In this document: piece by piece, positions 1,118 through 60,217 of the stretch | Layout of the letters: the number at the start of each line of letters is the position of its first letter | Position numbering within the stretch: position 1 is the first letter of the stretch | IMG/VR virus record: IMGVR_UViG_3300005095_000008 | Span: 23,031-87,030 of that record | DNA: 64,000 bases | From: a virus | Reading direction: 5' to 3' (one strand) | Translations under genes and position numbers: made by a program | Notes under the pieces: generated by a model | Databases searched by the model: none | Told to the model about the DNA's origin: nothing | Seen by the model: the letters and a program-made list of their open reading frames with translations, nothing else

Positions 1118-1190
1118 GCTATTTTCCTTTTTAACTTTAAACTATTTAGATACTTTGTATCACCTCATAACTATGAATATAATATGTACT
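1118..1190 (-). promoter_or_regulatory. Early-promoter-like motif plus conserved 5' leader (copy 1 of 3)
   Basis: Minus strand reads TACATATTATA...GAGGTGATACAAAGTATCTAAATAGTTT...AAAAAGGA-ATG; related copies at 8506-8580 and 42746-42820. Confidence 0.7.
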
Positions 1191-8505: not shown

Positions 8506-8580
8506 GTGTTCTCCTTTATTTTAGAACTATTTTAAATTAATACATTGTTGTATCACCTCTAGACTAAATATATAATATAT
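8506..8580 (-). promoter_or_regulatory. Early-promoter-like motif plus conserved 5' leader (copy 2)
   Basis: Minus strand ATATATTATA...TAGTCTAGAGGTGATACAACAATGTATT...AAATAGTT...AAAGGAG-ATG. Confidence 0.65.
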
Positions 8581-8934: not shown

Positions 8935-9423
8935 ATGAAAAAAGAAACAATTAAATTAGCGTTTTATAAAAATTATAAACGGGATATATTAGATTATTCT
9001 ATAGCAGTATTTCAATTTCTATTTCTTGCTGGAAAACACTCAAAGTATACACATACAGAAATTAATATCAGAGGATTGAGTTATACTAGTTCATATGTCG
9101 ACGGGGGTGTACGAAAAAAGAAGATCAACTATTCTGAAGAAAATTGGGAAGTATTAGAGTTTGAAGTTTCTGCAGAATCTGTAGATAAAATGTTGTCATT
9201 CTTTGAAAATGAGGAAGGCAAGAAATACGATTTATTAAACATTTTCTTTGCGCAATTTTTGCATATACCTATTGAAAGAAAAGATAGATGGATCTGTAGT
9301 GAAATATGTGCAAAAATGCTAGATCTGACTGACGAATTTAAGATGAAACATAGACCAGTTTACTATAGTCCAGCAAAACTACACAAAGAAATAATGAAAA
9401 AAAAAATAAACTATTACATCTAG
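8935..9423 (+). CDS. Permuted papain-like (NlpC/P60-related) thiol hydrolase
   Basis: His-before-Cys order: KYTHTE ... GKKYD ... RWICSE. Confidence 0.7.
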   Translation: MKKETIKLAFYKNYKRDILDYSIAVFQFLFLAGKHSKYTHTEINIRGLSYTSSYVDGGVRKKKINYSEENWEVLEFEVSAESVDKMLSFFENEEGKKYDLLNIFFAQFLHIPIERKDRWICSEICAKMLDLTDEFKMKHRPVYYSPAKLHKEIMKKKINYYI

Positions 9424-9444
9424 CTTAATTAAGCTAGATGTAAT
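9413..9444. terminator. Perfect 32-bp palindrome spanning two convergent stop codons
   Basis: attacatctagcttaattaagctagatgtaat overlaps the ends of 8935-9423(+) and 9429-9779(-). Confidence 0.75.
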
Positions 9445-9779
9445 TCTGCTGTGTCGTCCATATGAATAACGTCATTATAGATAATGTCGCTATCCATCGT
9501 GTGTTTACGCAACTTTTCTAAAGCGCGATCGAATAGTTGCTTCGCTCGCTGTTTGGAGACATTTAATCTCTTACCAATTTCCTCAAAAGAGTATTCATGC
9601 GCATTTACTCTTGTACGCGCATTTACAAGCTCTAAATCGGCTTTTGTGCGCAAGAGCATCTCGGTAAGATCGTTGCGTTGCGCAACAAGTATATCCTCCT
9701 TACTTAATAACACCTCTATTTCATTTATAGTTGCTATTAATTTTTGACGATAGTCACTTAGCTTCATTCCTTTTTTCAT
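9429..9779 (-). CDS. Stand-alone sigma-70 region-4 HTH protein, paralogue 3
   Basis: YSFEEIGKRLNVSKQRAKQLFDRALEKLRK matches sigma region 4.2; N-terminal helical hairpin; no region 2. Confidence 0.8.
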   Translation of the reverse strand: MKKGMKLSDYRQKLIATINEIEVLLSKEDILVAQRNDLTEMLLRTKADLELVNARTRVNAHEYSFEEIGKRLNVSKQRAKQLFDRALEKLRKHTMDSDIIYNDVIHMDDTAELHLA

Positions 9780-9844
9780 TCGTTTACTCCTATTACATAC
9801 ATACAGTTTATAAAGTCATTTAAAACATATCAACTTGACGTTTT

Positions 9845-10153
9845 CTATTTTTTAATATACTCACGCAACGGCCTGTTAATGGCTGGGTGTTTTATTTTTT
9901 TAAGTGCAGCCGTTAGTATCTGTCTTAATCTCTGTGGTGTTATTTGTAGTTTTCGTGCCAAGTATTGATCCTCTGTTAGCGAACTATGTAGCTCTTTAAC
10001 ATGGTTTAAATCTCTGTATAGCTTTTGACGTAAACTCATTAACTCATCCCTAGTGTTATTAGTAAGGCCATATTGATTTAATAGCGTGTTGATGTGGTTG
10101 ATCTCTTGTTGAATATCATTTTGTATTTCAACAATGTTTCGTTTATTACGCAT
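9845..10153 (-). CDS. Stand-alone sigma-70 region-4 HTH protein, paralogue 2
   Basis: LARKLQITPQRLRQILTAALKKIKHPAINRPLREYI resembles the RpoD C-terminus. Confidence 0.8.
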   Translation of the reverse strand: MRNKRNIVEIQNDIQQEINHINTLLNQYGLTNNTRDELMSLRQKLYRDLNHVKELHSSLTEDQYLARKLQITPQRLRQILTAALKKIKHPAINRPLREYIKK

Positions 10154-10499
10154 GAGACTCTCCTGTATTTAGATCTTTACTATCATAAAGATCTAAATAT
10201 TCTCGTAGTTTTCTTGCTACGTTAGGTGTAGAGAGTTTCCTTAAGGCTTGATTTTGTATTTGCCTAATTCTCTCTTTTGTTAAACCTAACGTCTTACCAA
10301 CAACATCTAGAGGTGTTTGTTGTTTTGCACTGCCTGGTAATTGCAAACGTGTTACGATTACAAGATCATCTCGCAAAGTTCTTAACCTCTTATTGAGCTC
10401 TTCTCTATCTGTGGGAGATAGCTCGTATTCAGAAAGAACACGTTTAATCTCTTTGATATTGAACTCAATGTCTTTTTGTAGTGATTTTAATGTCATCAC
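10146..10499 (-). CDS. Stand-alone sigma-70 region-4 HTH protein, paralogue 1
   Basis: PLDVVGKTLGLTKERIRQIQNQALRKLSTPNVARKLREYLD closely follows RpoD 4.2 (TLEEVG..F.VTRERIRQIE.KALRKLRHP). Confidence 0.88.
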   Translation of the reverse strand: MMTLKSLQKDIEFNIKEIKRVLSEYELSPTDREELNKRLRTLRDDLVIVTRLQLPGSAKQQTPLDVVGKTLGLTKERIRQIQNQALRKLSTPNVARKLREYLDLYDSKDLNTGESHA

Positions 10500-11002
10500 T
10501 TCTCCTTTTCAACAATAGACTCCTCTTTATAGAATTCCTCTCTAAATGCTTTTGATTTAAAGAGTTCTTCTATATCATCTTTAGAGTACATACACTCTCT
10601 GTCTCCTACCATATCGAGAAAGTGTAGTTCAGCAGCGATTGCTTCTCTTTCCAAATGGTTATCCTCTACCAACACATAGAGGTCCTCTGTGTCATTATAG
10701 AGGTCTTCATATCGACCTTCATTAATTTGGTCGATGTGCACCAACTCATGTACGAGAAATGCCTGCATGATGTTTGTCTCTGCAAGTTCTCGTACTTTTC
10801 TGTAGTCAATGATTCCGATATTAAGACGCTTTCTAGCAGCGTCGACACTGAAGTCGTCATCATTGTTTAGCACTACTTGAAAACCATTTACGAATACTTC
10901 CGTGCCGTATTCCGCTAACGTTATTCCAAGTTGTTCTGTTTTAGGCGCTTTTAAGTTTTTCAGCGCATCTACCAATTCCATTACATTATTAACCATTACC
11001 AT
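10496..11002 (-). CDS. Putative zincin metallopeptidase (HExxH)
   Basis: AFLVHELVHIDQ with downstream LEREA third ligand; acidic; first gene after the promoter motif at 11038-11048. Confidence 0.7.
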   Translation of the reverse strand: MVMVNNVMELVDALKNLKAPKTEQLGITLAEYGTEVFVNGFQVVLNNDDDFSVDAARKRLNIGIIDYRKVRELAETNIMQAFLVHELVHIDQINEGRYEDLYNDTEDLYVLVEDNHLEREAIAAELHFLDMVGDRECMYSKDDIEELFKSKAFREEFYKEESIVEKEK

Positions 11003-11054
11003 TGTTACTCCTTTTTATTTAACTATGTAACTAATGATATAATATGTAAATAAA

Positions 11055-11462
11055 CTATTTTCTATTCTTTAAATATGGTTTATAATATTCAGAAGCATAT
11101 TTATATATCTCGGCGTATGTATACTTTAAATTGTAGTTACTACTTAATCTATTAGTAATGTTCTTAATGCCATAAATATTTGGGTTGCGTTTAATATACG
11201 TAGCGTACGCTTCTAGTTCGTAATAGAGTTTCTTCTTATCTGATATTTTATATAACAATGCTTGTAAACCAAACGTTCTAAAGAACTGTTTTGAGTGCAC
11301 TAGTTCATGTTCCAACACAATCTCGTTATTTCTCATCTCTGGCCTAATAAAAATAATAGGACCCCATGAAACACCGACGAACGGTTCTTTAAGAAATTTA
11401 TTTGTATAAACTACCAACACAGGAAAAATCTTGTAAATTGTTTTAATTTTGAAATTCATCAT
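11055..11462 (-). CDS. Small HExxH metallopeptidase-like protein
   Basis: GPIIFIR...VLEHELVHSKQ...YELEAY; start moved to the ATG at 11462 (AAAAGG RBS). Confidence 0.7.
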   Translation of the reverse strand: MMNFKIKTIYKIFPVLVVYTNKFLKEPFVGVSWGPIIFIRPEMRNNEIVLEHELVHSKQFFRTFGLQALLYKISDKKKLYYELEAYATYIKRNPNIYGIKNITNRLSSNYNLKYTYAEIYKYASEYYKPYLKNRK

Positions 11463-11508: not shown

Positions 11509-11536
11509 ATACAGTAGACCAAATGGTCTACTGTAT
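11509..11536 (-). terminator. Hairpin, 12-bp arms with AAAT loop
   Basis: atacagtagacc-aaat-ggtctactgtat after the stop of 11542-12150. Confidence 0.7.
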
Positions 11537-42745: not shown

Positions 42746-42820
42746 TGTTTGTCCTTTTTTCTTTTAAACTATTTAGATACATTTCTGTATCACCTCTAGA
42801 CTAGTAATATAATATGTATA
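42746..42820 (-). promoter_or_regulatory. Early-promoter-like motif plus conserved 5' leader (copy 3)
   Basis: Minus strand TACATATTATATTACTAGTCTAGAGGTGATACAGAAATGTATCTAAATAGTTT...AAAGGAC-ATG. Confidence 0.7.
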
Positions 42821-51461: not shown

Positions 51462-51500
51462 TCTAAATTTTTTTAGAGTATATACCACGAAAGGACATGC

Positions 51501-56272: not shown

Positions 56273-56405
56273 GTATGCTCCTTTTTAAAAGTGTCAATAG
56301 GTTCACGATAAAACCTAAGAGACCTACATGTATAATATGTGTACCAATTATTTTTCATTTATACAGTTAACTATTTACGAGAGAAAAAAGATTGCACTAC
56401 AGACA

Positions 56406-59056: not shown

Positions 59057-59107
59057 TTTAATCTCCTTTTCAGTTCATTTATTTAAATAATATGTATATG
59101 TAAACAT

Positions 59108-60217
59108 TTAGAGTATTTTCTGTAATGTATCTTCTAAAATCTTCCAGTCGCTATGGTTCAACATATCTCTACCAATCTCTTCTTTCATCAATGGTATTAA
59201 ATTATCTTTCGTAATAGAAAATGCTTCTTGTTTTTCTAAAAATAATACCTTCTGTTCTTTCTCTTCTTTTTTATCAGTGTATTCTATATCGATATGATAC
59301 TGCTTAAATGTATTTCGTAATATATCTACACTCTTCTTTAATTCACTCCCTGCTTTTACCCTAATACGTAGTCTACTCTTAGGCGGTAATTTCAAACTAC
59401 GAATATCTTTCATTAACTCTTCAATAGTGATATTCTGATAATGTAATGTCTTATATACTTTCGCTAAAGTATTCTCTAAGAACAAATACTCTCGTACTGC
59501 GCCATTAACATAAATTAACAATCCACCCTTTTTCTCTTCTTCATTATGTGTTAGTCTATCAAAACTACCAGGTGTCAATATTCTATCATACGCACTATGG
59601 TTATGAATATGTCCACACACTACATAATGTTTCGTAATACTTAAATAGTCACTCTCCCTATGTGATACTGGTGAGGTAAACATTGGTAAATGATAGTGAA
59701 ACTGTCCATGAATAATGGTAAAGTCTACTTGTGTTAATTCTAGACTATGCAGTAATGACTGTACCTCTTCCCATGTCTCCTCTGCAGTCTCATTAATTTC
59801 ATCTGGTATGTAGAGTATATGTATACCCAAGTCTTCCATATACTCGATATGTATCTTATCAAAATACTTAAAATCCACTTCTATATTCAACTTCGTTAAA
59901 ACAGTATTAAATGTTTTCAACTGTTTAAAGTCATGTGATGGTGTTCCTTCTAATATTCGTAATTTAATATTATTCGTTTTACAATACTTTGCTACATTAC
60001 TCAACCACTCTACCGCTAGCTGATACTCTTTACTATTATTCGGCAATAACCTATCGAAAATATCACCAGATATCATAAGTATATCAATGTCGTACAATAC
60101 TTTGTCATACTTCTGAAAGAACTGATACAAATGATCTACAATCTCTTCTGTCGTTGTTTTGTTATGTCCTAAATGAATATCTGATAAATCTAACATCTTT
60201 ACTTTTTGTATATTCAT
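59108..60217 (-). CDS. SbcD/Mre11-like metallophosphoesterase nuclease
   Basis: SDIHLGH, SGDIFD, EGTPSHD, IIHG, GHIH, PGSFDRL. Confidence 0.9.
   Translation of the reverse strand: MNIQKVKMLDLSDIHLGHNKTTTEEIVDHLYQFFQKYDKVLYDIDILMISGDIFDRLLPNNSKEYQLAVEWLSNVAKYCKTNNIKLRILEGTPSHDFKQLKTFNTVLTKLNIEVDFKYFDKIHIEYMEDLGIHILYIPDEINETAEETWEEVQSLLHSLELTQVDFTIIHGQFHYHLPMFTSPVSHRESDYLSITKHYVVCGHIHNHSAYDRILTPGSFDRLTHNEEEKKGGLLIYVNGAVREYLFLENTLAKVYKTLHYQNITIEELMKDIRSLKLPPKSRLRIRVKAGSELKKSVDILRNTFKQYHIDIEYTDKKEEKEQKVLFLEKQEAFSITKDNLIPLMKEEIGRDMLNHSDWKILEDTLQKIL

What the first reader, a model, noticed from the sequence alone, without database searches (positions are those of the whole stretch)
9429..11048. 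Early operon of three stand-alone RpoD region-4 mimics headed by a metallopeptidase
Seen: three tandem 102-117 aa paralogues share an N-terminal helical hairpin (pattern I..I...L.........R..L.........DL..V) fused to sigma region 4.2 plus the RpoD-like terminal helix (ALRKLSTPNVARKLREYL; ALKKIKHPAINRPLREYI). None has sigma region 2 or 3. Their recognition helices differ (TKERIRQ, TPQRLRQ, SKQRAKQ). They follow an HExxH peptidase behind the early-promoter-like motif at 11038-11048. Known: sigma-4 binds the RNAP beta flap tip and the -35 element and is the surface contacted by anti-sigmas and class II activators; phiKZ-like phages encode their own RNAPs and can do without host transcription. Inference: a sigma-4 decoy panel that occupies the host flap tip, blocks -35 sites or titrates sigma-4-binding regulators, possibly coupled to proteolysis of a host factor. 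I know of no described system of this architecture.
Basis: partly seen in the sequence, partly recalled or inferred. Interest (0 to 1): 0.85.

Follow-up and report, generated by a model that had tools for sequence, protein, structure and literature searches.

The report
Three free-standing sigma region-4 proteins
A giant phiKZ-like phage makes, from an early-type promoter, three small sister proteins that are just the promoter -35-reading, polymerase-docking end of a bacterial housekeeping sigma factor, an uncharacterised kind of transcription factor that probably re-aims an RNA polymerase.

Summary
Window 9429-11048 (minus strand) is one transcription unit. It runs from a promoter core (11038-11048) through a 168-aa HExxH protein and three paralogues of 116, 102 and 116 aa to a terminator hairpin.

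- Each paralogue is a stand-alone sigma-70 region 4. Two of the three pass Pfam's cut-off, and the best matches are the C-termini of primary sigmas. None has region 2 or 3.
- The genes are under purifying selection.
- The phage is a distant phiKZ-like jumbo phage.
- The promoter core matches the AR9-type early (virion polymerase) consensus.
- About 14 full-length relatives exist among 1.84 billion protein representatives.
- None of 5 cultured phiKZ-like phages tested has such a gene.

"Metallopeptidase" rests only on the HExxH motif. The decoy function is untested.

My reading (about 35%): these are trans-acting -35 readers that dock on a polymerase flap, with three different specificities. 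The same genome carries two kinds of -35-position box at fixed spacing upstream of its early-promoter core. A pure host-polymerase decoy is about 25%.

The scan has noted stand-alone sigma-4 proteins in other phages before.

The parts
11038..11048 (-). Promoter core TACATATTATA (9-mer core CATATTATA), box-less subclass, 36 nt upstream of the HExxH-2 start codon
   Evidence: The core ATATTAT equals the centre of the AR9 early consensus AAATATATATTAT-(6N)-G (PMC5312081, passages).
10496..11002 (-). HExxH-2: 168-aa acidic (pI 4.5) protein with HELVH at residues 85-89. Zincin-like by motif only.
   Evidence: DUF6782 E 0.047, 13.4 bits against cut-off 27; no meaningful PDB match; one 96%-identical relative.
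10146..10496 (-). sigma4-A: 116 aa (117 from the GTG at 10499), pI 9.6. Residues 32-103 align with the whole region 4 of primary sigmas. Recognition helix TKERIRQ; RpoD-like terminal helix.
   Evidence: 31 bits; E 1.8e-9 to 3n97_A, 5.9e-9 to 4g6d_A.
9845..10153 (-). sigma4-B: 102 aa, pI 10.2. Start overlaps the end of A. Recognition helix TPQRLRQ; RpoD-like terminal helix kept.
   Evidence: 14.1 bits, below cut-off; E 2e-12 to A; RpoD C-terminus E 3.9e-5.
9429..9779 (-). sigma4-C: 116 aa, pI 6.9, after a 65-nt gap. Recognition helix SKQRAKQ. The RpoD-like terminal helix is replaced by an acidic tail.
   Evidence: 36 bits; E 3e-6 to A.
9413..9444 (-). Terminator-like hairpin (14 pairs) plus T-run that ends the unit. 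The next gene (8935-9423, + strand) is convergent.
11055..11462 (-). HExxH-1: 135-aa basic (pI 9.8) protein with HELVH, upstream of the promoter and therefore outside the unit. It resembles HExxH-2 only at motif level.
   Evidence: DUF6055 E 9.6e-4; phrog_13761 E 2.7e-8; E 0.073.
11509..11536 (-). Terminator-like hairpin after the 202-aa acidic gene. It separates that gene from HExxH-1.
51472..51480 (-). Box I (TACTCTAAA), 13 nt upstream of ATATTAT, at the promoter of the non-virion RNAP beta exon 1. A second copy lies at 59107-59115 and a third outside the window. Candidate target of one paralogue (inference).
56347..56357 (-). Box II (TGAAAAATAAT; two of the three copies read TTGAAA), 8 nt upstream of ATATTAT. 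A second copy lies at 1194-1204 and a third outside the window. Candidate target (inference).

Best explanation
The three proteins are free-standing sigma region-4 domains captured from a bacterial primary sigma factor and triplicated.

Proposed mechanism: each binds one DNA box at the -35 position through its region 4.2 helix-turn-helix. Each also docks on the flap-tip helix of an RNA polymerase beta subunit, through the groove formed by the region-4.1-like helices and, in A and B, the RpoD-like terminal helix. They would therefore supply -35 recognition in trans.

Their base-contacting residues differ, so they should read different boxes.

They are made early from a box-less promoter. They would then shift transcription towards box-bearing phage promoters, two of which types exist at fixed spacing from the phage's early-promoter core. 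By occupying flap tips they would also withdraw host polymerase from ordinary sigma-70 promoters. This resembles sigma appropriation, but is done with a real sigma-4 domain.

Shown: domain identity, paralogy, operon structure, promoter type, purifying selection, rarity, and the existence of the boxes.

Inferred: DNA binding, flap docking, which polymerase is served (host core or the phage's own, about even), and the pairing of proteins with boxes. The role of the HExxH protein is unknown.
For: Domain identity:
- Pfam Sigma70_r4 is over the cut-off in 2 of 3 paralogues.
- phmmer against PDB found 69 sequences at E<=1. The 60 listed are all sigma factors or sigma-flap chimeras, and A residues 32-103 align to the full region 4 up to the sigma C-terminus.
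- hhalign of the family against 13 primary sigmas gave probability 99.2% over 50 columns.
- The best NCBIfam models are RpoD C-termini, none near its cut-off, so these are not whole sigmas.

DNA reading:
- A and B are basic (pI 9.6 and 10.2).
- R77, Q80, A85, L86 and K88 (numbering of A) are invariant in the trio, while the flanking positions vary: K-E..R, P-Q..R and K-Q..K. From recall, these correspond to the sigma-70 specificity positions 584, 585 and 588.

Selection:
- A related strain differs at 43 of 1686 bases with no indel.
- Of the 40 listed differences, 26 are synonymous, 13 non-synonymous and 1 intergenic.
- In the three sigma-4 genes the split is 13 synonymous to 8 non-synonymous.
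- All 8 changes from the recognition helix to the C-terminus are synonymous.

Flap surface:
- A, B and 11 of the 14 aligned relatives (not P0040, P0056 or P0064) keep the terminal motif R.L[RK].Y[LI] and variants of it, with its conserved Leu.
- From recall, this Leu is the position of sigma-70 L607, whose substitution weakens flap binding.

Timing:
- 16 of the 21 copies of the 9-mer core lie in the 6.9% of the sequence that is intergenic, and 15 of those are on the gene strand, mostly 20-150 nt upstream of starts (three at 280-456 nt).
- One copy lies upstream of the gene whose best phiKZ-type match is annotated as non-virion RNAP.
- The core matches AR9's mapped early consensus (PMC5312081).
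- It also fits the general rule for these phages (PMC7598289).

Targets:
- TGAAAAATAAT occurs 3 times in 87 kb, and all 3 copies lie 8 nt before ATATTAT.
- TACTCTAAA occurs 4 times, and 3 copies lie 13 nt before ATATTAT.
- The spacer sequences between box and core vary.
- The operon's own promoter has no box.
Against: - No binding of any kind is shown.
- Only 3 + 3 boxed promoters are seen, in 32% of the genome. Nothing links a given box to a given protein, and other factors could read the boxes.
- Box I contains no TTG, although B keeps R and Q at the positions that (from recall) read TTG in sigma-70.
- AR9 early transcription needs no phage-made factor (PMC5312081).
- In phiKZ the non-virion polymerase already carries a sigma-like subunit whose C-terminal domain sits where region 4 would sit (PMC7618050), so a phage polymerase may have no free flap.
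- None of 5 cultured phiKZ-like phages has a Sigma70_r4 match over the cut-off, so the mechanism is not general to the group.
- C lacks the RpoD-like terminal helix.
- Relatives elsewhere keep an RpoD-identical recognition helix, which fits host-directed action equally well.
- The equivalence of the N-terminal helices with region 4.1 rests on phmmer alignments only; hhalign aligned just region 4.2 plus the terminal helix.
Confidence: 0.35

Rival explanations
1. Pure host-directed decoys or inhibitors. The proteins occupy the host beta flap tip and/or host -35 elements, so that sigma-70 holoenzyme can no longer use -35-dependent promoters. They have no positive role at phage promoters.
For: - They are primary-sigma-like region 4 domains with the terminal helix kept in A and B.
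- The promoter is of the early type.
- phiKZ-type phages transcribe with their own enzymes and do not need the host enzyme (PMC7598289).
- Family relatives keep an RpoD-identical recognition helix and occur in a bacterial chromosome and in a second, apparently unrelated viral contig, which implies a bacterial partner.
- Known phage proteins work at this same surface: T4 gp33 and AsiA (PMC7824862 passages), and Xp10 P7 and P23-45 gp39 (abstracts in the listing).
Against: - Three paralogues that differ at base-contacting positions, with those segments conserved between strains, are not needed for flap occupancy.
- A free sigma-4 with RpoD-like specificity could complement rather than block -35 reading.
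- The affinity of an isolated monomeric sigma-4 is low (recalled).
- No toxicity or binding data exist.
Confidence: 0.25
2. Ordinary DNA-binding regulators. These would be sigma-4-derived HTH proteins, perhaps dimerising through the N-terminal amphipathic helix, that repress or time phage promoters without touching a polymerase.
For: - Most small phage HTH proteins are such regulators; jumbo phages encode a median of 2 and up to 15 transcription factors (PMC7824862).
- A and B are basic.
- There is an extra N-terminal helix with heptad-like hydrophobic spacing.
- About 29 of 80 viral loci fetched with the family profile carry short sigma-4-only ORFs.
- The ESM Atlas holds clusters of 69-122-aa Sigma70_r4-only proteins (a lead only).
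Against: - The RpoD-specific terminal helix, which (from recall) has no DNA-binding role in sigma, is conserved across relatives that share only 23-37% identity.
- The candidate boxes are asymmetric and sit at a single fixed spacing from the core. That suits an oriented monomer inside an initiation complex better than a dimeric repressor.
Confidence: 0.2
3. Half of a two-piece sigma. A region-2-only partner encoded in the unsampled 68% of the genome would combine with A, B or C on host core polymerase, as T4 gp55 does with gp33 (recalled in part; gp33 from PMC7824862) or B. subtilis SigO with RsoA (recalled).
For: - Only 32% of the genome is in hand.
- The three interchangeable region-4 modules would give three promoter classes with one -10 reader, which matches a constant core with variable boxes.
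- Earlier scan notes propose two-piece sigmas in other jumbo phages (unchecked).
Against: - No Sigma70_r2 match was found in six frames of the 87 kb.
- A survey of 224 jumbo phages reports no sigma factor in any phiKZ-like (group 1) phage (PMC7824862).
Confidence: 0.08
4. Decoys for proteins that bind sigma region 4. Targets could be host activators or anti-sigma-like regulators, sigma-containing defence systems, or takeover proteins of competing phages. The proteins would titrate these away from the real sigma.
For: - The sigma-4 surface features are retained.
- An NCBIfam model of a defence-associated sigma (MzaA) matches A at E 4e-10, though only as a generic sigma C-terminus.
- The family also occurs in a bacterial genome, where an anti-takeover role is conceivable.
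Against: - There is no candidate partner.
- The diverged recognition helices of B and C, and the lost terminal helix of C, make them poorer mimics of the host domain.
Confidence: 0.07

Closest known systems
Region 4 (sigma-4 domain) of bacterial primary sigma factors (RpoD/SigA), Pfam PF04545
   Same: Homologous by sequence. A residues 32-103 align with the whole domain to the sigma C-terminus. The HTH, the recognition-helix core and the terminal helix are conserved.
   Different: No regions 1-3, so these are not sigma factors. They carry about 25-30 extra or rearranged N-terminal residues and have altered base-contacting residues. There are three copies, in a phage that encodes its own polymerases.
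T4 gp33 late co-activator (with gp55 and the gp45 clamp)
   Same: A small (about 110-aa) helical phage protein that takes the place of sigma region 4 on the beta flap (PMC7824862 passages; the Twist et al. 2011 title was seen in its reference list).
   Different: No sequence relation was found: no gp33 family appeared among the Pfam or PHROG hits. gp33 does not read DNA (recalled). It belongs to T4-like phages that lack their own polymerase.
T4 AsiA/MotA sigma appropriation
   Same: In the proposed mechanism, -35 recognition by host sigma region 4 is replaced by recognition of a phage-specific box near -30 (PMC6755090 abstract; PMC5312081 introduction).
   Different: AsiA and MotA remodel the host's own region 4 and add an unrelated DNA-binding protein. 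Here a genuine sigma-4 domain would do both jobs. No homology.
'Sigma factor-like helix-turn-helix DNA-binding protein' (NCBI name for orphan Sigma70_r4 proteins) and the 'minimal sigma' of group 2 jumbo phages
   Same: Same stand-alone architecture. P0151 from Sulfurospirillum carries this name and is a full-length relative. Minimal single-HTH sigmas are reported for T4-like jumbo phages (PMC7824862).
   Different: No function has been described; only 2 papers hold any of the four phrases searched, and neither is functional work. The window's case is a triplicated early operon in a phiKZ-like phage, a group reported to have no sigma factor.
phiKZ gp68 / AR9 gp226 promoter-specificity subunits
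   Same: A sigma-like factor of phage multisubunit polymerases, whose C-terminal domain occupies the place of region 4 (PMC7618050).
   Different: gp68 is about 520 aa, a fixed subunit, without detectable sequence similarity to sigma. The window's proteins are small and clearly RpoD-derived.

Membership tests
Sigma-70 family sigma factor | Region 2 (core binding, -10 recognition), Pfam PF04542 | tested here: not met
   No region 2 hit in any of the three proteins. No PF04542 match in six frames of the 87-kb contig, while 11 of 14 control genomes matched.
Sigma-70 family sigma factor | Region 4 (HTH that reads -35), Pfam PF04545 | tested here: met
   C 36.0 bits and A 31.0 bits against the cut-off of 24.1. 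B scores 14.1 bits but is a paralogue of A at E 2e-12.
Sigma-70 family sigma factor | Whole-protein score over an NCBIfam sigma model cut-off | tested here: not met
   Best is RpoD NF004208 at 45.4 bits against a cut-off of 555. All matches cover only the model's C-terminal 60-80 positions.
T4 gp33-like flap-binding co-activator | Sequence membership in the gp33 family | tested here: not met
   No gp33 family among the Pfam or PHROG hits at E<=1 and E<=0.01.
T4 gp33-like flap-binding co-activator | Binding to the beta flap tip | not testable with these tools
   Needs a pull-down, two-hybrid assay or structure.
Two-piece sigma (gp55+gp33, SigO+RsoA type) | A region-2-only partner gene in the same genome | tested here: inconclusive
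   None in the 87 kb, but CheckV completeness is 32%.
Zincin metallopeptidase | HExxH motif plus a family-level match or a third zinc ligand in a known fold | tested here: inconclusive
   HELVH is present in both ORFs. Pfam DUF6782 E 0.047 and 0.15 and DUF6055 E 9.6e-4 are all below their cut-offs. No NCBIfam hit. No meaningful PDB match: one hit, E 0.6, to an unrelated designed protein. The ESM Atlas gave no named family above chance.
ImmA/IrrE protease with partner HTH regulator | Peptidase_M78 (PF06114) domain next to an Xre-type HTH | tested here: not met
   No PF06114 hit at E<=1 for either HExxH protein. The HTH proteins are of sigma-4 type, not Xre type.
phiKZ-like (Chimalliviridae-type) jumbo phage | phiKZ-type major head protein and split multisubunit RNAP beta genes | tested here: met
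   phrog_3231 E 2e-103. phrog_3015 and phrog_3295 RNAP beta. The head protein is 25-30% identical to those of 154 phage records, including PhiPA3, 201phi2-1 and Goslar. The beta exon matches a KTN4 gene annotated as non-virion RNAP.
Early (virion-RNAP) promoter of RNAP-encoding jumbo phages | A conserved AT-rich motif of about 10 nt upstream of early operons, including the non-virion RNAP genes | tested here: met
   16 of 21 core copies are intergenic. One precedes the nvRNAP beta exon. The core equals the centre of the AR9 early consensus. Transcription start sites and timing are not testable here.

The most novel reading that the evidence does not exclude
A phage-encoded multisubunit RNA polymerase (or an appropriated host core) would use interchangeable, free-standing sigma-4 modules. 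One constant -10-like core is read by the enzyme, and three diffusible -35 readers of different specificity plug into the flap. They would sort the early regulon into sub-classes: box-less immediate-early genes, then box I and box II delayed-early genes such as the non-virion polymerase. That would be a modular sigma whose region 4 is exchanged in trans, in a phage group thought to have no sigma factor at all.
Probability: 0.2. Interest if true: 0.85.

Novelty: new variant of a known kind. Interest (0 to 1): 0.6.

Why it matters
Region 4 of sigma is the best-studied contact point for promoter -35 recognition, activators and phage takeover proteins. Even so, orphan region-4 proteins are only auto-annotated and have no described function.

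Here three of them sit in one early operon of a phiKZ-like phage. A survey of 224 jumbo phages reported no sigma factor in that group, and how promoter classes are told apart in it is still open: for phiKZ, no factor for middle promoters is known.

If they read the two -35-position boxes found in this genome, they would show a new way to build promoter specificity, with sigma-4 supplied in trans. If they are decoys, they would be a new class of host-polymerase inhibitor built from the host's own part.

Either way the prediction is cheap to test with three small proteins and short DNA fragments.

Tried and rejected
Structure and complex prediction:
- Structure prediction was not possible (switched off), so there is no fold search and no test of whether the N-terminal helix fills the flap groove or forms a dimer.
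- Complex prediction of sigma4-A (alignment A2) with E. coli RpoB 831-1057 as a stand-in flap gave no verdict (score 0.00, partner poorly folded). It counts neither for nor against binding.

Genomic context of relatives:
- Scans with single proteins found no close kin of the DHH gene, HExxH-2 or the head protein in viral contigs.
- Scans with P0151 found only sigma-like partial matches in genome contigs and metagenome contigs, and nothing in viral contigs.
- Only P0007 gave a true context, locus L101.
- The word-indexed protein search found only the query itself for sigma4-A.

Searches of named collections:
- tblastn of A and P0004 against 50,697 phage records gave 24 and 27 records. None covered 80% or more of the query. 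The annotated ones (7 and 9) are sigma-factor genes; the rest carry no annotation.
- P0151 against plasmids gave 72 records. The 3 that cover 80% or more are rpoD genes.
- megablast of the region against phages gave no match.

Homology of the HExxH proteins:
- HExxH-1 against HExxH-2: E 0.073.
- HExxH-2 against the L101 HExxH protein: pairwise E 0.009, not recovered by phmmer or jackhmmer among 10,638 ORFs, and hhalign probability 21.9%. I leave this as a lead, not a finding.

Other checks:
- Goslar gp116-118 gave weak Sigma70_r4 hits (14-17 bits). Their HTH is N-terminal and they do not match the family profile. Rejected as relatives.
- Five large viral contigs with sigma-4-like ORFs are not phiKZ-like by head protein (0 of 5; positive control on the own genome).
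- The host could not be settled.
- No RNA holder is listed among the sequencing runs, so nothing can be said on expression.
- I rejected the idea that the trio is a broken or split full sigma gene. Each ORF has its own RBS and start, and there are no indels between strains.

Rows dropped: P0036 and P0095 (short proteins with a canonical region 4.1) were fetched but left out of alignment A2. Of the 150 listed hits, I fetched 21.

Supplementary files of papers were not opened.
Full report
WHAT IS THERE. The window is bases 23031-87030 of an 87,030-bp IMG/VR viral contig that CheckV rates 32% complete. It is therefore a fragment of a jumbo phage of roughly 270 kb.

The contig carries:
- a phiKZ-type major head protein (phrog_3231, E 2e-103), 25-30% identical to those of 154 phage records including PhiPA3, 201phi2-1, Goslar and RAY;
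- split multisubunit RNA polymerase beta genes. One of them best matches a gene of the phiKZ-type phage KTN4 that is annotated as a non-virion polymerase subunit.

THE LOCUS. Everything is on the minus strand. Reading downstream:
- a 202-aa acidic gene (12150-11542);
- a terminator-like hairpin (11536-11509);
- a 135-aa basic HExxH ORF (11462-11055);
- the promoter core TACATATTATA (11048-11038);
- a 168-aa acidic HExxH ORF (11002-10496);
- sigma4-A (10496-10146), whose start overlaps the preceding stop;
- sigma4-B (10153-9845), overlapping the end of A;
- a 65-nt gap;
- sigma4-C (9779-9429);
- a 14-pair hairpin with a T-run (9444-9413), facing a convergent gene.

Each ORF has an AGGAG-type ribosome-binding site 7-8 nt before its start. 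The transcription unit is thus promoter, HExxH-2, A, B, C, terminator. The first HExxH ORF lies outside it.

THE THREE PROTEINS ARE SIGMA REGION 4.
- Pfam Sigma70_r4 scores 36.0 bits (C), 31.0 bits (A) and 14.1 bits (B) against a cut-off of 24.1. B is tied to A by BLASTP at E 2e-12, and C to A at 3e-6. B and C are not linked directly.
- A six-frame scan of the whole contig finds exactly these three places for region 4 and none for region 2.
- Against all PDB sequences, A matches 69 distinct chains at E<=1. The 60 shown are all sigma factors or sigma/flap-tip chimeras. Residues 32-103 align end to end with isolated region-4 constructs (3n97_A at E 1.8e-9, 4g6d_A at 5.9e-9) and with the last 72 residues of SigA or RpoD.
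- NCBIfam gives RpoD C-termini as the best models for A and B, at 45 and 23 bits where the whole-protein cut-offs exceed 350.
- Profile-profile comparison of the family with 13 primary sigmas gives 99.2% probability over region 4.2 plus the terminal helix.

Its second helix aligns with region 4.1 in the phmmer alignments, but hhalign does not extend that far. I therefore read the proteins as a complete but rearranged sigma-4 domain with about 25-30 extra N-terminal residues. The register is unresolved.

C has lost the RpoD-like terminal helix and ends in an acidic tail. A and B are basic (pI 9.6 and 10.2) and C is neutral.

THE GENES ARE REAL AND CONSTRAINED. Four DNA runs from two studies hold a related strain. 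One 5,297-bp contig covers 9415-11100 with 43 differences and no indel.

Of the 40 differences listed, 26 are synonymous, 13 non-synonymous and 1 intergenic. In the three sigma-4 genes the split is 13 synonymous to 8 non-synonymous over about 213 synonymous and 789 non-synonymous sites, a ratio near 0.17.

All eight changes from the recognition helix to the C-terminus are synonymous (A codon 76; B codons 74, 77, 91, 93, 94; C codons 80, 82). The non-synonymous changes sit in the N-terminal helices and loops and at the N-terminal edge of C's Pfam Sigma70_r4 match (H61Y).

WHAT VARIES BETWEEN THE PARALOGUES. In the trio, R77, Q80, A85, L86 and K88 (numbering of A) are invariant. The neighbouring positions read K-E..R in A, P-Q..R in B and K-Q..K in C.

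From recall of the sigma-70 literature, not from a call, these are the equivalents of R584, E585 and R588, the classical -35 specificity positions. The invariant R and Q correspond to R586 and Q589.

Variation concentrated at base-contacting positions, in segments otherwise frozen between strains, looks like diversified DNA specificity rather than decay.

THE PROMOTER IS OF THE EARLY TYPE. The 9-mer [CT]ATATTAT[AT] occurs 21 times in 87 kb. Sixteen copies lie in the 6.9% of the sequence that is intergenic, and 15 of those are on the gene strand, mostly 20-150 nt upstream of start codons (three at 280-456 nt).

A review states that each polymerase-encoding jumbo phage has a conserved AT-rich motif of about 10 nt, centred near -10, upstream of early operons. 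It also states that non-virion polymerase genes are early (PMC7598289, passages).

The mapped AR9 early consensus is AAATATATATTAT-(6N)-G (PMC5312081, passages). Its centre, ATATTAT, is the core seen here, and one copy here precedes the non-virion beta exon. 'Early' is thus well supported by analogy, but no transcript data exist.

TWO KINDS OF -35-POSITION BOX. Aligning the 15 intergenic promoters on the core shows three sub-classes.
- Three promoters carry TACTCTAAA 13 nt before ATATTAT. These are 3 of the 4 copies in the genome; the fourth is inside HExxH-2.
- Three carry TGAAAAATAAT 8 nt before ATATTAT. These are 3 of 3 copies, and two of them read TTGAAA.
- In both groups the spacer sequences vary.
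- The rest, including the operon's own promoter, have no common box, but they have a T-rich run upstream and a TAG about 6 nt downstream.

If the core is centred near -10, both boxes fall at about -35 to -22, where region 4 sits in a bacterial initiation complex. Nothing yet connects a protein to a box. The numbers are small, and only a third of the genome is seen.

RELATIVES AND RARITY. A profile of the trio, scored against 1.84 billion representative proteins, found 5,343 hits at E<=0.001, mostly sigma C-termini. Among the best 150 were 16 short proteins (101-131 aa) matched over nearly the whole length.

I aligned 14 of them with the trio, leaving out P0036 and P0095, which have a canonical region 4.1. 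They share 23-37% identity with A. They keep the N-terminal helix and an RpoD-identical recognition helix (T/S-R-E-R-V-R-Q-I-E), and 11 of the 14 also keep the terminal helix.

Most come from single metagenome contigs. One cluster (46 members, 81 contigs) includes a Sulfurospirillum chromosome, where NCBI names the protein 'sigma factor-like helix-turn-helix DNA-binding protein'.

No cultured phage or plasmid record holds a full-length relative. None of 5 cultured phiKZ-like phages (FLC9, PhiPA3, Goslar, RAY, RP12) has a Sigma70_r4 match over the cut-off.

[quoted passage not shown] It describes 'minimal' single-HTH sigmas and gp33 only in T4-like jumbo phages (PMC7824862, passages).

Short sigma-4-only ORFs as such are not rare in viral contigs: about 29 of the 80 loci fetched, by my crude ORF calls. 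The ESM Atlas holds clusters of such proteins (a lead only). Earlier notes of this scan report stand-alone sigma-4 proteins in four other phages (unchecked).

THE HExxH PROTEINS. Both have HELVH. Otherwise they resemble each other only at motif level (E 0.073) and match putative-peptidase Pfam families below threshold. There is no NCBIfam hit and no meaningful PDB match. 'Metallopeptidase' is therefore a motif-level guess.

The one relative whose context I could read is L101, a 42.5-kb viral contig that is 36% complete and shows no phiKZ head gene in the fragment. It has a single family member followed two genes later by a 213-aa HExxH protein. Its counterpart, 71% identical, is on record from a contig of 95,326 bp, the same length as the longest contig recorded for P0007, so probably the same contig.

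The two HExxH proteins align over 48 residues (pairwise E 0.009). Database-style searches and hhalign do not confirm this. The adjacency is a lead worth following, nothing more.

HOW IT MOST LIKELY WORKS. The family keeps the DNA-reading helix. It also keeps a terminal helix that, from recall, is part of the flap-binding side of sigma-70 region 4; its conserved Leu corresponds to L607. That argues for proteins that both read DNA and dock on a polymerase.

The trio's diverged base contacts, the early box-less promoter and the two -35-position boxes fit trans-acting -35 readers that sort promoters. Competition with the host sigma's own region 4 would be a side effect or a second purpose. I put this at about 35%. 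Which polymerase is served remains open, because the phiKZ non-virion enzyme already has a sigma-like subunit at that site (PMC7618050) and AR9 early transcription needs no new protein.

The other readings are:
- pure host decoy, about 25%;
- ordinary repressors or regulators, about 20%;
- half of a two-piece sigma, about 8%;
- decoy for region-4-binding proteins, about 7%.

COMPARISON WITH WHAT IS KNOWN. The proteins are members of the Sigma70_r4 domain family but not sigma factors. They work most like T4 gp33 (flap occupancy) or like AsiA/MotA sigma appropriation (replacing -35 reading), without homology to either.

My four literature searches found no functional description of an orphan region-4 protein, and none in a phiKZ-like phage. 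Subscription journals and supplements were not searched.

VERDICT. This is a new variant of a known kind, of solid interest, with cheap decisive experiments.

Noticed in passing
window 51472-51480, 59107-59115 (box I); 1194-1204, 56347-56357 (box II); further copies outside the window in the same contig: The phage's early-type promoters fall into sub-classes. Two different upstream boxes (TACTCTAAA and TGAAAAATAAT) sit at single fixed spacings from the conserved core, with variable spacer sequence. A third class has no box but a conserved TAG about 6 nt downstream.
   Followed up: partly
window 11055-11462 (-): A second small HExxH protein (135 aa, basic, hydrophobic N-terminus; phrog_13761 E 2.7e-8) lies between a terminator and the operon's promoter. 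No promoter motif of its own was seen.
   Followed up: partly
L101:10001-11357 (IMG/VR contig of 42,483 bp): In a second viral contig, apparently of a different phage, a single-copy member of the same sigma-4 family is followed two genes later by a 213-aa HExxH protein. A 71%-identical copy of that HExxH protein is on record from a contig of 95,326 bp, the same length as the longest contig recorded for relative P0007, so probably the same contig.
   Followed up: partly
L100:2095-4392 (Escherichia phage Goslar, record 119094-121391): Goslar gp115-gp119 form a tandem array of small proteins with weak N-terminal HTH matches, and gp119 is annotated SANT/Myb. They are not relatives of the sigma-4 family, but they are another tandem set of small DNA-binding proteins in a nucleus-forming phage.
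   Followed up: partly
protein P0005 (836 aa, metagenomic): This protein gave 11 separate matches to the sigma-4 profile. It is built of about a dozen tandem HTH repeats of roughly 60-70 residues.
   Followed up: no
window 1157-1166, 8550-8559, 42787-42796 (-): The 10-mer GAGGTGATAC recurs three times just downstream of box-less promoters, in the leaders of unrelated genes.
   Followed up: no
window 9400-11100: A strain about 2.5% divergent, without indels, is present in DNA runs of two studies. One small-share holder is labelled 'epibiont metagenome'. A 96%-identical HExxH-2 sits on a 1.2-kb ENA contig.
   Followed up: partly
window 8935-9423 (+): The convergent 162-aa gene matches phrog_1128 (E 2.6e-29), labelled enoyl-CoA hydratase/carnitine racemase-like. 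That is an odd label for a protein of this size.
   Followed up: no
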